Virus record (IMG/VR): IMGVR_UViG_3300028591_000080
Location: 95,745-159,744 of that record
Length of the DNA: 64,000 bases
Direction: 5' to 3' (one strand)
DNA from: a virus
Taxonomy: Duplodnaviria > Heunggongvirae > Uroviricota > Caudoviricetes
The notes under the pieces: generated by a model
What the model was told of the DNA's origin: nothing
Database searches by the model: none
Seen by the model: the letters and a program-made list of their open reading frames with translations, nothing else
Made by a program: the position numbers and the translations under genes
Part shown: one piece after another, positions 25,155 to 59,210 of the stretch
Numbering within the stretch: position 1 is the first letter of the stretch
How the letters are laid out: the number at the start of each line of letters is the position of its first letter

Positions 25155-26231
25155 TTATTTATTCTCCTCTTCACGGTCATATTCTATAATATAATTTTCA
25201 ATAAATGATTCTTCAATATTAGCACTAATTTCATTTGTTTTGCCATCTTCATCAACTAAAATAAGTTGTTCTTGATTTCCAGCCTCATCCTCAGTAATAA
25301 CTGCTTCTTGAGTATTTTCTTCTATTGAGATTCCAACTGTTTCTTTATTTCCACTAGAATCTTCTACATAAACATTCCAATTTGGATCTGAATTATGTAA
25401 TGAATATAGATAATTTAAATGATTCTTTAATACATTTATTGTTTCTTTTAAATTATTTATTTCTTGATTTTGTGTTTCATCTTCAGAACTAGGTCCTGAA
25501 CCTTTTTCCTCAGCAAGTTCTCTAGTTGTTTTTCGAACTTCTTCTGTTGGGTAAGATCCGTCTGCCAAATCATCTAATCCTAGATCATTACTAATTATTT
25601 TTAATAAATCATCATGTGTTTGTATCTTTTGATAAGTTGGAACTTGTACCTCTTCTGTAGGATATTCTTTTTCTATTTCTGAATTAAGTCCTAAATCTGA
25701 AGCTAATAGACTAACAATATCATCTAAATTTTGTGATTTTGTTTCTAATTGAGCTAATTTATTTCCATAAAGCTCGATATAATTTTCTACTTCTGCTAAT
25801 CTCTGTTCGATATCTTCAAAAAGTTCTTTAGGAATTTCTGTTGAACCAATTTGCTCTGGTGCATCATTTACTACTATATATTCATAAAATGCATTAGCAC
25901 TAGTTGAAGTTTGTTCAACCTCAGATTCAGATACTTGTTGAGGATTGTAATTTGGGTCGTCAATAATTCGTTTATCTATTAGATATATTATATTTTGTTC
26001 TGTAACATCACTTAATGATTGAACGATCTCAAAATGAAGATTTGAAAAACTTTCGAATCGTTCGTCCACTTCCTGTGCAAATTCATCTATCTTTTGTAGT
26101 GAAGATAATGGATCTAGTGAACTACCAGCGTTTTCACCGGCTAAATTGATTATAAAATCTACAAATCTTTCTAAATTAAGATGTTCTTTATCGATTAATG
26201 TTAAGCCTAATCTTGTTGTTGTGCTTGACAC
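25155..26231 (-). CDS. Acidic coiled-coil structural protein
   Basis: GTG start with SD; T.RLGL.LI..QKID N-terminus typical of tail-fibre-associated proteins; internal duplication (DLGL..YPTEEV twice). Confidence 0.6.
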   Translation of the reverse strand: MSSTTTRLGLTLIDKEHLNLERFVDFIINLAGENAGSSLDPLSSLQKIDEFAQEVDERFESFSNLHFEIVQSLSDVTEQNIIYLIDKRIIDDPNYNPQQVSESEVEQTSTSANAFYEYIVVNDAPEQIGSTEIPKELFEDIEQRLAEVENYIELYGNKLAQLETKSQNLDDIVSLLASDLGLNSEIEKEYPTEEVQVPTYQKIQTHDDLLKIISNDLGLDDLADGSYPTEEVRKTTRELAEEKGSGPSSEDETQNQEINNLKETINVLKNHLNYLYSLHNSDPNWNVYVEDSSGNKETVGISIEENTQEAVITEDEAGNQEQLILVDEDGKTNEISANIEESFIENYIIEYDREEENK

Positions 26232-26321
26232 GATAAAAAACCTCCTATTAATAAATTTTAATACAAGTAATTTAGCAATTAAAAAGTAATTAAAAACTAA
26301 AATAAAAAGAAAAAGGATTAA

Positions 26322-56630: not shown

Positions 56631-57242
56631 TTATTTCTCAAAGAAATATTTCTTATTAAAATTAGTAGCTTTAACTCTGTGAGCATAGGCAACAGTTGCA
56701 AATACTACATAAGCCTTACCTCTATAAACTTCTACTTTATAATCTTTAGCTTCGACCTTTTCTAATCTATATTCTTTACTATCACCACGATACTTAGTTC
56801 TAACATAGATTGGTAAGCCTGCTTCCTTTCTTTCCACTAACATATCATAAAACATTTTATTAGGTTCTGTTAAACTGTTTGGATCGTAAGGATCTGGATA
56901 TTTATCTTTAGTTCTCTTATCCCATGTTCTTTCAGTTCTATACATTAAATCTTTACCTGCTTTAGAATCGGCTAATGCCCACATGCCCCAGCGTTGACGA
57001 TGATAGTTTAAATAGTTATCTAATAATACTGTATCAGTAGTTCTAAAATCTGGCCTGTGACCATCATGATGTGTGCTGTCATAATTTAAAATATTATCTA
57101 CTACTAATTTAACTTCATACTTATATTGATTTCCTGTCACTTCAACTGATTTAATTACTCCAGTATAATAATCAAACCAACCTACATCAAATACAATTCT
57201 CTTACCTACAAAACTCATAACATATGTTAATTTATCTTTCAT
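56631..57242 (-). CDS. Hypothetical protein
   Basis: 203 aa; sigma70 promoter upstream. Confidence 0.7.
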   Translation of the reverse strand: MKDKLTYVMSFVGKRIVFDVGWFDYYTGVIKSVEVTGNQYKYEVKLVVDNILNYDSTHHDGHRPDFRTTDTVLLDNYLNYHRQRWGMWALADSKAGKDLMYRTERTWDKRTKDKYPDPYDPNSLTEPNKMFYDMLVERKEAGLPIYVRTKYRGDSKEYRLEKVEAKDYKVEVYRGKAYVVFATVAYAHRVKATNFNKKYFFEK

Positions 57243-57309
57243 ACTTATACACCTCTTTCTATCTTCATATATATTATACCATAAAACACTTGATTTGTAA
57301 ATATATAAA

Positions 57310-57343
57310 CGAAAAAACTTTAGAAATTAATCTAAAGCTTTTT
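57310..57343 (-). terminator. Intrinsic terminator closing the ncRNA unit
   Basis: Inverted repeat CTTTAGA-aattaa-TCTAAAG flanked by A/T runs. Confidence 0.7.
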
Positions 57344-57344
57344 C

Positions 57345-57950
57345 AGAAAGGAGGGTATAAGAATGATTGATGTTTCAATACTAACTAACATTGCACAAGG
57401 TCCAGCTCTCTCTGTAGCTATCAGAGTCGTGTGCTTGTGGAATCGGTCTTAGCTTTGGCGCCTCCTACACTAACCACCGTTCTGCTACTTTCAGCGGTCC
57501 TGCTTTCTGTTTAACGGCTGGGCTCAGTGCAATATTAGTTAATTAATAAGTTAATATCTTTGGTTGATTCTATCCGACCCCATCAGTATTTCTTATGTCG
57601 GCATTCATCTAGCGATGGGATATTCTGCTCTTCATCCTTATCCGAAGACTGTCACTCCAGCACGAACCTCTCAACAGATAGCTGCGCATCTAACATGTTG
57701 TTCGTCTTGATATTAACTATTACTAAATAACATTATACCCGGTACGACTCGGTCGGGCCATCCCCACTAGATAAATCTAGCTTGTTGCGTCGATGCAACT
57801 TTGTTACGACTACTGTCACCACAATTGTAAGGTACAGGCTTTGATTACTTATTCCGGAATTACATAACCTTTAGCCTTAGAGAATTAATCTCATGTATAA
57901 ATACTTGCTTGTGCGTGCTACACCTTTTACGTCATACCCGCTATAATATT
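57345..57950 (-). ncRNA. ROOL-like large structured RNA (~600 nt)
   Basis: No ORF; ends pair (GGGUAUGA 57932-39 with UUAUACCC 57353-60); 14 bp helix 57527-40/57383-96; many hairpins. Segments GAAUAUCCCAU..AUGAAUG, UGAAAGUAG and GGUGGUUAGUGUAGGAGGCGCCAAAGCU resemble ROOL as I recall it (unverified). Confidence 0.7.
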
Positions 57951-57971
57951 ATTTAGTCATATATTTAATTA

Positions 57972-58674
57972 TGGAGGGGCCGGCAGGATTTGCACCTGCA
58001 ATACTAAATGATTTTTCGGATATAAGCTGCTATATTTACTTTATCTAGAATTTCATATAACCCGAATATACTCTACTCAACCAACCACATTAAGGTTCTC
58101 GATACCGCTTATTTCTAAGTGTGTGCTCCTCCCTAGTGGGCAGCCCCATAGTAAATCGCATCAGCAGGTCGCTTGTCTGACTTTTCACTTGGCCTTCGCT
58201 AGCTGATACTTATCTTTCCACTCGGCAGGAAAAAATCTAAATCGTGCCACCTACTCGACTATGTCCTCGGCCTCTAGCAGTATACGAACTTGTTGGGCAG
58301 ACTTAACTGCATATGCTCATATACTCTTAGAGACTGACTAAGATATTCTTAGTAATCTCACCACCGCCAGAGGTTTATTCTATTCCGCGGCTTAGGGCGC
58401 ACAGAATAGTTTTCGCCTCTAGCAATATATAATACCAAACTCGGCCGAATCTTTCGGAGATGCTGGACCGATAGTTTATTCTCACATTTAAATATTATAT
58501 ATTCTTAGAGACGATCAAGATGGCCGTATAATTCGAATTGACTCCCTCACCAGCTTCAACCTAGGACTATAGTTGGTTTTTGTTCAAGCCCTAACTTATA
58601 TACTTCCTCAACTACATTGGCTCATGACTTCCTCAATAGAAGTGGACATTTATAAGCTTGCTTCATCTTGATAC
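57972..58674 (-). ncRNA. Second large structured RNA (~700 nt), possibly GOLLD-like, with tRNA-like 3' end
   Basis: Starts just after a consensus promoter; no ORF in the track; nested helices (GCUAGAGG/CCUCUGGC, CUAUUCU/GGAAUAG, UCGGUC/GGCCGA, ACUAAGA/UCUUAGU); ends in T-arm-like hairpin, 7 bp stem and U-CCA. Family identity is tentative. Confidence 0.6.
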
Positions 58675-58680
58675 ATTTAT

Positions 58681-58709
58681 ATTATACACCAATTTAATTG
58701 AAATGTAAA
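58681..58709 (-). promoter_or_regulatory. sigma70-type promoter driving the ncRNA unit
   Basis: TTTACA (58704-09), 17 nt spacer, TG-TATAAT (58681-86). Confidence 0.85.
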
Positions 58710-58736
58710 TATCTTTTTTATATTTTTTTAAATTTT

Positions 58737-59210
58737 TTATACTTCATCATAGAATGGATCTGTTGTTGTGTCAAAGCATACTGGTGCGTCGCTTCCATTG
58801 TAATAACAATACTCAACAACTCGTATTGTTTCCTTGCTTAATTCTGGACAAGGCAATTTAACAGCTTCGAAGAATGCTTTAAACTTAGGTATATATTTTA
58901 CTAATTCATTATCTGTTAATTCTCTAGACTTAGTAAATTCACCTGCTTCATCCCATCCTCTATCTAATAGAAAATCTATGTAATATTCATGAAGAGATTG
59001 CCAGTCTCCATTAACCTTAATTAAGCTTGCACCATAACTAGACATAAACTTTCCAGGCTTCTTCCAATCTATGATATCACTAAACTCAGGTCTATCTAGA
59101 TATTCTTGTATATCATCATCACAATCATACTTCTCATTTCTGAATTTCATAGAACTAATTTCTTTAGGTAATCTTAGTCTGACTGCTTTAATTCTTTCCA
59201 TCTCACTCAT
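58737..59210 (-). CDS. Hypothetical protein
   Basis: 157 aa; EYCYYNG..P..FD motif. Confidence 0.7.
   Translation of the reverse strand: MSEMERIKAVRLRLPKEISSMKFRNEKYDCDDDIQEYLDRPEFSDIIDWKKPGKFMSSYGASLIKVNGDWQSLHEYYIDFLLDRGWDEAGEFTKSRELTDNELVKYIPKFKAFFEAVKLPCPELSKETIRVVEYCYYNGSDAPVCFDTTTDPFYDEV

What the first reader, a model, noticed from the sequence alone, without database searches (positions are those of the whole stretch)
57345..58709. Two different giant structured RNAs in tandem in one non-coding operon (ROOL-like plus GOLLD-like)
Seen in sequence: a consensus sigma70 promoter (58681-58709) and a terminator (57310-57343) bracket ~1.35 kb with no ORF in the track and higher GC than its surroundings. 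It splits into a ~700 nt unit (58674-57972) and a ~600 nt unit (57950-57345), each with many complementary helices. The second unit has paired ends and a 14 bp long-range helix. Established knowledge: ROOL and GOLLD are phage/prophage-associated ornate RNAs that form multimeric RNA-only cages, with unknown function. Inference: the downstream unit is ROOL (size and recalled motifs) and the upstream unit is GOLLD-like or new. I do not know of the two classes being co-transcribed back to back. An early promoter suggests a dedicated RNA-only system acting at infection.
Basis: partly seen in the sequence, partly recalled or inferred. Interest (0 to 1): 0.88.

Follow-up and report, generated by a model that had tools for sequence, protein, structure and literature searches.

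The report
Two new phage RNA genes in tandem
A 1.36-kb gene-free stretch of an uncultivated 230-kb phage holds two large folded non-coding RNA genes that match no catalogued RNA family; they are neither ROOL nor GOLLD, although the same phage carries a true ROOL elsewhere.

Summary
Window 57310-58709 (minus strand) has an early-type promoter, a terminator, no ORF under code 11, code 4 or TAG=Q, and 38-44% GC against 28% for the genome.

The ROOL/GOLLD naming fails. Rfam 15 gives no hit there even at E<=10. The ROOL model scores 252 bits elsewhere in the same genome, beside its tRNA array.

About 35 homologous loci from metagenomes show two separable RNA genes. In one relative (L059) they have separate promoters and terminators, 3.6 kb apart.

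Unit 1 starts with a 151-211-nt core. The core is a closed four-helix junction with an invariant 24-nt strand. 92% of its pair cells are standard pairs, against 31-45% in slid controls. In some relatives this core sits inside large tRNA arrays. Variable stem-closed modules follow it, then a tRNA-like element (acceptor stem, T-arm, CCA).

Unit 2 is three stem-closed domains, and the first has covarying inner hairpins.

Function is unknown. I infer a processed early operon of stable RNAs that acts on the tRNA or translation machinery.

The scan has reported other new RNAs in jumbo-phage tRNA arrays. None shares sequence with this family beyond a 6-word overlap with one unfollowed note.

The parts
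58681..58709 (-). Sigma-70-type promoter (TTTACA, 17-nt spacer, TATAAT) of the phage's repeated promoter family. The transcript probably starts near 58674.
   Evidence: 11 of 12 matches. (five other copies in the genome at 81-84% identity). The -35 and -10 hexamers are invariant in six homologous loci.
58514..58672 (-). Conserved core RNA domain of unit 1 (159 nt here, 151-211 nt in relatives). Helix P1 closes it. Inside are P2/P3 (a long irregular arm), P4 (a variable arm) and a 3-bp P5 that carries an invariant loop.
   Evidence: Model R1 finds 35 copies in the related loci (one more, L036) and one copy in the own genome. Covariation: 92% of cells paired against 31-45% in slid controls, and 36 of 42 pairs with changes on both sides. 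G.U 90 against A.C 12 in the pairs.
58522..58545 (-). Invariant 24-nt strand GGAGUCAAUUCGAAUUAUACGGCC. It differs in only one lineage, by a paired C-to-U and G-to-A change. It contains the 10-nt palindrome AAUUCGAAUU and a T-loop-like UUCGAAU.
   Evidence: Predicted unpaired probability 0.64 against a 0.42 mean.
58413..58513 (-). Module M1: a long hairpin closed by the bracket motif GUCUCUAAGA...UGCUAGAGGC, with a variable tip.
   Evidence: Minimum-energy helices 9+12 bp. The bracket follows the core by 3 nt in the relatives that have their own promoter, and its contents differ between them. Homologs.
58380..58409 (-). Module M2: a 10-bp hairpin (CUAUUCUGUG/CGCGGAAUAG).
   Evidence: Found in 11 loci.
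58271..58373 (-). Module M3: a second bracket-type module (…GUCUCUAAGAG…CUGCUAGAGG).
58144..58255 (-). Module M4: a branched hairpin. Part of it (58144-58209) gives a sub-threshold match to the int-alpA motif.
   Evidence: (25.6 bits, gathering score 35.8). Not corroborated in the L043 homolog.
57972..58147 (-). Module C: a tRNA-like element. It has a 7-bp acceptor stem (GGGGCUG/CGGCCCC), a 5-bp T-arm with loop UGCAAAU abutting the acceptor 3' strand, and a 3' UCCA. About 140 nt are inserted where the D and anticodon arms would be. It is the probable processing point between units 1 and 2.
   Evidence: changes on both sides at two acceptor pairs and two T-arm pairs; NCCA in 3 of 4 homologs. 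ARAGORN and the Rfam tRNA and tmRNA models do not call it.
57722..57957 (-). Domain D of unit 2: a multi-branch domain closed by an invariant 16+7-bp stem, with conserved junction strands and covarying inner hairpins.
   Evidence: 97% of cells paired against 31-44% in slid controls; 13 pairs with changes on both sides.
57545..57719 (-). Module E of unit 2: a present-or-absent insert. It is nearly identical in the window, L037 and L059, and absent from L025.
57380..57543 (-). Domain F of unit 2: closed by a 17-bp stem that resembles the closing stem of D.
57345..57358 (-). Single-stranded AUACCCUCCUUUCU just before the terminator. It resembles an anti-Shine-Dalgarno sequence. It is kept in six loci and absent from L059.
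57310..57345 (-). Intrinsic terminator (14-15-bp stem plus a U run). The stem sequence differs in L037 and L032 but still pairs.

Best explanation
The stretch is an early-type transcription unit that encodes no protein. It holds two separable genes for large structured RNAs, both of families absent from Rfam 15.

Unit 1 (about 58674-57972) begins with a strongly conserved 159-nt core. The core is a closed four-helix junction whose helices come in the order of a tRNA cloverleaf. Its invariant 24-nt 3' strand carries a palindromic, T-loop-like sequence. Exchangeable stem-closed modules follow the core, and the unit ends in a tRNA-like element with an encoded CCA.

Unit 2 (about 57957-57345) consists of three stem-closed domains (D, E, F).

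Shown here: non-coding status, conservation, covarying secondary structure, RNA strand, separability of the two units, mosaic exchange of modules, and placement of the core inside tRNA arrays in relatives.

Inferred mechanism: the host polymerase transcribes the unit early in infection. The precursor is cut at the tRNA-like element (RNase P and 3' tRNA-end enzymes) and perhaps at the 16-24-bp closing stems (RNase III). This would release several stable folded RNAs. By analogy with tRNA-island RNAs (ROOL, GOLLD, T4 RNA C and D), these would act as RNA-only or RNA-protein particles on the tRNA or translation machinery during takeover. The palindromic invariant loop may let the core pair with itself.
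For: Non-coding:
- No ORF under three codes.
- No three-base periodicity of substitutions, and gap lengths that are not multiples of three. Nucleotide identity is 84-92% against 77% for the neighbouring protein gene.

Transcription signals:
- Promoter and terminator are present, with none between them, and both are conserved in relatives.

Structure:
- Core: 36 of 42 pairs change on both sides; 92% of cells are paired against 31-45% in slid controls.
- Core: G.U pairs outnumber A.C 90 to 12, which fixes the RNA strand.
- Domain D: 97% paired against 31-44%.
- tRNA-like element: compensatory changes in the acceptor stem and T-arm.

Two genes:
- In L059 each unit has its own promoter and terminator.

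tRNA link:
- In L042, L047, L062 and L043 the core lies inside tRNA arrays. In L052, L063 and L065 a tRNA follows it directly.

New family:
- No Rfam hit.
- No GenBank phage match.
- No match in one genome of each of 185,579 prokaryote species.
- No literature match.
Against: Transcription, RNA ends and cleavage at the tRNA-like element are therefore unproven.

The covariation alignment for the core was fitted to the model, which inflates pair counts. The covariation in domain D rests largely on one deep split among seven sequences. Domains E and F have almost no informative variation.

The closing stems of D and F and the 24-nt strand never vary. Their pairing or exposure is inferred, not shown by covariation.

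The function is argued only from context and analogy, and the closest analogues themselves have no known function.
Confidence: 0.8

Rival explanations
1. One reading: the downstream unit is a ROOL RNA and the upstream unit is a GOLLD-like RNA, co-transcribed.
For: Size (about 600 and 700 nt), phage origin, a rumen-type source (from an earlier unchecked note), and the general link of ROOL and GOLLD to tRNA islands (PMC12286853).
Against: There is no ROOL or GOLLD match in the region at gathering score or at E<=10. The ROOL model detects a true ROOL at 252 bits elsewhere in the same genome, so the search works on this phage. GOLLD finds nothing in the genome. The 20 homologous loci searched with Rfam also give no ROOL or GOLLD hit.
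Confidence: 0.02
2. The stretch is not two large RNAs but a string of about ten independent small stem-closed RNAs, like a tRNA array whose slots hold tRNA-like decoys or sponges. Each would be released separately and each would have its own target, for instance host tRNA-directed or RNA-directed defences.
For: Every module is closed by its own stem. Modules are gained, lost and swapped one at a time between relatives. In relatives the core occupies a slot between tRNAs. In L029 a Tad3 anti-defence gene occupies the equivalent position, and a Lar restriction-alleviation gene lies nearby in L025 and L035.
Against: D-E-F and core-plus-bracket travel together as blocks in several relatives. No cleavage signals other than the tRNA-like element are recognisable. 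There is no evidence for any target.
Confidence: 0.25
3. The stretch is a DNA-level element, such as a replication origin, packaging site or recombination hot spot, made of inverted repeats. The folded RNA would be incidental.
For: There are many inverted repeats. The invariant AT-rich stems lie at the mosaic break points. A perfect 10-bp palindrome is present.
Against: The pairs tolerate G.U far more than A.C (90 to 12), which only makes sense on one RNA strand. Compensatory changes keep helices whose sequences differ completely. The promoter and terminator bracket the stretch exactly. The core also occurs inside tRNA arrays, which are transcribed as RNA.
Confidence: 0.04
4. The stretch is a cis-acting leader (riboswitch or attenuator) that controls the downstream 203-aa gene.
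For: The core has a riboswitch-like build: a closing P1, a junction with invariant nucleotides, and variable arms. The RNA lies directly upstream of the 203-aa gene in several relatives.
Against: The RNA ends in its own terminator, and the gene has its own promoter (57301-57273) and ribosome-binding site. The gene occurs without the RNA (L029, L030). The RNA occurs without the gene next to it (L035, L037, L042, L059).
Confidence: 0.03

Closest known systems
ROOL RNA (Rfam RF03087)
   Same: A large (about 600 nt), multi-helix, phage-borne non-coding RNA from rumen-type samples, often near tRNA islands, with no known protein partner (PMC12286853). The same phage carries a true ROOL next to its tRNA array.
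   Different: The RF03087 model gives no match at E<=10. The helix layout differs: beads-on-a-string stem-closed domains rather than the ROOL fold. Whether these RNAs form multimers is untested.
GOLLD RNA (Rfam RF02032)
   Same: One half is universally conserved and the other is variable. tRNAs sometimes lie within or beside it. It is phage-borne (PMC12286853).
   Different: There is no match to RF02032. Here the 5' end is the conserved part, whereas in GOLLD it is the 3' end. The conserved core is far smaller (about 160 nt).
Phage T4 stable RNAs C and D (species 1 and 2) of the T4 tRNA gene cluster (from my own knowledge; not tested here)
   Same: They are non-tRNA stable RNAs encoded among phage tRNA genes and co-transcribed with tRNA-like units, and their function is unknown.
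   Different: In this window the RNA has left the tRNA array and has its own promoter.
tmRNA tRNA-like domain, and mascRNA-type tRNA-like punctuation (from my own knowledge)
   Same: Module C has an acceptor stem stacked on a T-arm, an encoded CCA, and a large insert in place of the anticodon arm. It sits where a long transcript would be cut.
   Different: The tmRNA model gives no match. There is no G3.U70 pair (G3-C70 here) and no tag reading frame. The phage has a separate true tmRNA.

Membership tests
ROOL (RF03087) | Covariance-model score at or above the gathering score of 99.1 bits | tested here: not met
   No hit in 57200-58800 at E<=10 or in the window at gathering score. The whole-genome search finds only G000:C1:1356-1973 at 252 bits.
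GOLLD (RF02032) | Covariance-model score at or above the gathering score of 150 bits (conserved 3' domain) | tested here: not met
   No hit in the window or in the whole genome at E<=10.
tRNA (RF00005 / ARAGORN), for module C | Complete cloverleaf with D arm and anticodon arm, detectable by tRNA models | tested here: not met
   ARAGORN finds no gene in the window. Rfam gives no tRNA hit.
tRNA-like element (acceptor/T-arm mimic), for module C | 7-bp acceptor stem continuous with a 5-bp T-arm and 7-nt loop, a discriminator base, and CCA | tested here: met
   the stems are kept by changes on both sides, there are zero nucleotides between the T-arm and the acceptor 3' strand, and NCCA is present in 3 of 4 homologs.
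tmRNA (RF00023), for module C | Model match; G3.U70 alanine identity pair; tag-peptide reading frame | tested here: not met
   No RF00023 hit. Position 3 pairs G-C. The true tmRNA is at G000:C1:228755-229128.
int-alpA RNA (RF02996), for module M4 | Covariance-model score at or above 35.8 bits | tested here: not met
   25.6 bits, E 0.011. The only diverged homolog (L043) gives no hit.
Stable RNAs of phage tRNA clusters (a kind, not a sequence family) | Non-tRNA structured RNA located between tRNA genes of a phage array | tested here: inconclusive
   Met for the core in relatives L042, L047, L062 and L043. Not met in this window, where the nearest tRNA array is about 75 kb away across the contig ends.

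The most novel reading that the evidence does not exclude
The 160-nt core would be a new class of tRNA-array RNA with cloverleaf topology. It would self-associate through its invariant palindromic loop (AAUUCGAAUU) into an RNA-only assembly. The exchangeable modules and the tRNA-like element downstream would be cargo that it displays or sequesters. That would make it a third, independent invention of the ROOL/GOLLD type of phage RNA particle, possibly used against host defences aimed at tRNA or translation.
Probability: 0.15. Interest if true: 0.9.

Novelty: new variant of a known kind. Interest (0 to 1): 0.7.

Why it matters
Large ornate phage RNAs such as ROOL and GOLLD were recently shown to build RNA-only cages, yet their function is unknown and few classes are known.

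This locus adds two further families. Both are well conserved, have clear boundaries, and share the biological setting of tRNA islands in large phages. They occur in a phage that also carries ROOL, a tmRNA and a tRNA array.

The modular build is a small invariant core plus swappable stem-closed modules and a tRNA-like punctuation mark. This gives a compact, experimentally tractable system for three questions: how such RNAs are processed, whether they assemble, and what they bind.

It also shows that size and context alone do not identify ROOL or GOLLD.

Tried and rejected
- **GenBank phages:** blastn with the window RNA and with the L042 version gave no match.
- **Prokaryote genomes:** the 24-nt pattern gave no match in the representative genomes. 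I ran no further search on a shorter pattern, because chance hits would dominate.
- **Flanking proteins in IMG/VR:** these gave one cut contig and nothing else. Terminase relatives were mostly short fragments, and the 129-kb relative L016 has no match.
- **PHROGs and Pfam on 18 neighbouring proteins:** no informative family and no obvious RNA-binding partner.
- **Wrong accession:** RF01998 was my slip for GOLLD (it is a group II intron piece). I repeated the search with RF02032.
- **RNase P RNA idea:** a GAGGAAGUC string resembles the CR-I region, but it lies in a variable hairpin that other variants lack, and no RNase P model matches. Dropped.
- **Long-range helix:** the minimum-energy fold pairs the anti-Shine-Dalgarno-like tail with AGGGAGGAG in module C. 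This is not kept in L035, and the tail persists in L037 and L032, which lack that module. Rejected as a conserved feature.
- **int-alpA identity of M4:** sub-threshold and not corroborated.
- **Plus-strand small ORF:** the ORF behind the GGAGG on the opposite strand is not conserved in L037 (read).
- **Literature:** searches for the invariant sequence and for new ROOL/GOLLD-like classes found nothing. The supplements of PMC10690425 are not held.
- **16S complementarity:** GUCAAUUC and UCGAAUUA are complementary to conserved 16S rRNA strings that I recall from memory. I left this as an untested lead, because 8-nt matches are expected by chance.

Full report
**Where the window lies.** The window is bases 95745-159744 of a 230,252-bp virus record of 28% GC. 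An earlier unchecked note of this scan says the phage reads TGA as tryptophan, so I tested all coding questions under code 4 as well. The genome has a tRNA array at its ends (tRNAs at 1-913 and a tRNA with anticodon UCA at 2900-2995) and a tmRNA at 228755-229128.

**The observation.**
- The minus strand carries TTTACA-17-TATAAT at 58709-58681 and a 15-pair terminator at 57345-57310. No promoter-like site lies between them on that strand.
- The promoter sequence recurs at five other places in the genome.
- The stretch 57243-58736 is the largest ORF-free gap of the genome. No ORF of 80 aa or more lies within the RNA under code 11, code 4 or TAG=Q.
- GC is 38-44% against 26-33% beside it.
- Both halves fold about three standard deviations better than shuffles.

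**Is it ROOL or GOLLD?** It is neither.
- Rfam 15 gives no family at gathering score anywhere in the window.
- With lax filters on 57200-58800 the only hits are a sub-threshold int-alpA match (25.6 bits against 35.8) and noise.
- The ROOL model run over the whole genome finds a full-length ROOL at G000:C1:1356-1973 with 252 bits, beside the tRNA array, and nothing here. That is a positive control within the same phage.
- GOLLD (RF02032) finds nothing in the genome at E<=10.

**Homologs.** The 203-aa protein encoded downstream has 44 relatives. Their contigs show non-coding gaps of 630-1660 nt in the same neighbourhood, or no gap at all. blastn shows a mosaic: blocks of 77-97% nucleotide identity alternate with unrelated inserts, while the flanking protein is only 60-81% identical. 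A 24-nt string invariant in these loci retrieved one more viral contig and 28 metagenome contigs. It retrieved none from one genome of each of 185,579 prokaryote species. GenBank phages have no match.

**The conserved core.** Only the first 151-211 nt after the transcript start are shared by all loci.
- *Layout.* P1 closes the domain. Inside are P2 (AAGC/GCUU), a long irregular arm (P3 and beyond), a three-base joiner GAA, a variable arm P4, and the invariant strand GGAGUCAAUUCGAAUUAUACGGCC leading back into P1.
- *Possible fifth helix.* One lineage changes two positions of the invariant strand together (C to U and G to A). This fits a 3-bp helix GUC/GGC that holds a 14-nt loop.
- *Model and covariation.* A covariance model built from six sequences recovers 35 copies. 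On that alignment 92% of cells pair against 31-45% when partners are slid, and 36 of 42 pairs show changes on both sides. The alignment is fitted to the model, which flatters these numbers. Independent single-sequence folds of the arms nevertheless give the same helices from unrelated sequences.
- *Strand.* G.U pairs outnumber A.C 90 to 12, so the RNA is the minus strand.
- *Topology and loop.* The helix order (closing stem, arm, arm, short arm directly abutting the closing stem) is that of a cloverleaf. The loop contains UUCGAAU, the common T-loop sequence, within the palindrome AAUUCGAAUU. The tRNA resemblance is one of topology and is not a tested homology.
- *Copy number.* The core occurs once in this genome and once in a 166-kb relative that has no ROOL.

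**Link to tRNA arrays.** In L042, L047, L062 and L043 the same core lies between tRNA genes of large arrays. L042 has 24 tRNAs and a tmRNA, and its core starts 11 nt after tRNA-Ile. In L052, L063 and L065 a tRNA follows the core directly. In the window's lineage the core has its own promoter. A long hairpin follows it within 3 nt. That hairpin is closed by the motif GUCUCUAAGA...UGCUAGAGGC, and its tip differs between relatives. The window has two such modules.

**The tRNA-like element.** Module C (58147-57972) has a 7-bp acceptor stem, a 5-bp T-arm that abuts it, and UCCA. Four homologs keep both stems through changes on both sides, and three encode NCCA. It has no detectable D or anticodon arm, it is not called by ARAGORN or Rfam, and it lacks the tmRNA identity pair. 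It lies exactly between the two units.

**Unit 2.**
- Domain D (57957-57722) is closed by an invariant 16+7-bp stem. It has conserved junction strands and three inner hairpins that covary: 97% of cells pair against 31-44% slid, and 13 pairs change on both sides, mostly from one deep split.
- E is an insert that is present or absent and is nearly identical where present.
- F (57543-57380) is closed by a 17-bp stem similar to that of D.
- In L032 the D stem encloses almost nothing, so the stems act as holders for variable contents.

**Are there two genes?** Yes. In L059 a unit-1 gene (promoter 7064-7036, core 6961-6758, terminator 6495-6470) and a unit-2 gene (promoter 2854-2826, D-E-F 2697-2092, then a terminator) are separated by about ten ORFs. 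In the window they are fused head to tail with about 15 nt and no signals between them.

**Coding ruled out.** Substitutions show no three-base periodicity (15/19/12 and 27/30/30). Gap lengths are mostly not multiples of three. The RNA is more conserved at the nucleotide level (84-92%) than the neighbouring protein gene (77%).

**Mechanism.** What is shown is the anatomy. The rest is inference: early transcription by host polymerase from the phage's standard promoter; cutting at the tRNA-like element and possibly at the long stems; and release of stable folded RNAs. These would act in the same sphere as the other tRNA-island RNAs of phages.

The complete invariance of a palindromic, predicted-accessible loop (0.64 unpaired against a 0.42 mean) fits self-pairing between two copies, or binding of an invariant partner.

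The neighbourhood hints at an accessory or counter-defence region, but I found no target. Evidence for that hint: a Tad3 gene occupies the equivalent place in L029, and Lar genes lie nearby in L025 and L035.

**Comparison with the rest of the scan.** The scan has reported other new structured RNAs in jumbo-phage tRNA arrays on other genomes. Sequence look-ups found no shared family, apart from a 6-word overlap with one unfollowed note.

**Verdict.** This is a real and well-bounded pair of new structured RNA genes. The kind of object is right: large phage RNAs tied to tRNA islands, function unknown.

Noticed in passing
G000:C1:1356-1973 (minus), outside the window; locus L069: A true ROOL RNA (RF03087, 252 bits) lies beside the phage's tRNA array (tRNAs at 1-913), a tRNA with anticodon UCA (2900-2995) and, across the contig ends, a tmRNA (228755-229128).
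   Followed up: partly
window 57345-57358 (minus): AUACCCUCCUUUCU lies just before the terminator and resembles the anti-Shine-Dalgarno end of 16S rRNA. It is kept (as CCCUCC or ACCUCC) in the window, L025, L033, L035, L037 and L032, but is absent from the stand-alone unit 2 of L059.
   Followed up: partly
window 58144-58209 (minus): A sub-threshold match to the int-alpA motif (25.6 bits, E 0.011) has all junction nucleotides in place. The one diverged homolog (L043) gives no hit.
   Followed up: yes
L029:234-866; L025:6853-7095; L035:6291-6530: In L029 a Tad3 (PF25185) gene and a 136-aa gene occupy the place that the RNA has in the window. Lar restriction-alleviation genes lie about 2.5 kb downstream in two relatives. 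This looks like an accessory or counter-defence neighbourhood.
   Followed up: no
L042:10881-10957: A c-di-GMP-I riboswitch aptamer hit (49.5 bits, cut-off 35) lies directly after a tRNA with anticodon UCA inside a phage tRNA array.
   Followed up: no
L063:2774-2862 and L065:1566-1654: An 89-nt tRNA with an odd anticodon loop (ARAGORN reports 'tRNA-???', anticodon 'at') follows the core RNA directly.
   Followed up: no
window 25181-26321: A second ORF-free gap of 1.14 kb under code 4, with ordinary GC (28%) and no Rfam hit. I did not examine it.
   Followed up: no
L042:4720-4745, and arm P4 of the core in L039, L044, L050, L054, L059, L063 and L065: The same short module (GGCAUGUAAGGUCCUACGUCGUAGUUUGGAGCCUAAG) appears inside the core's P4 arm in some phages and downstream of the core in others. 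An earlier unfollowed note on another genome (e1-1841015) mentions repeated CGTCGTAG words.
   Followed up: no
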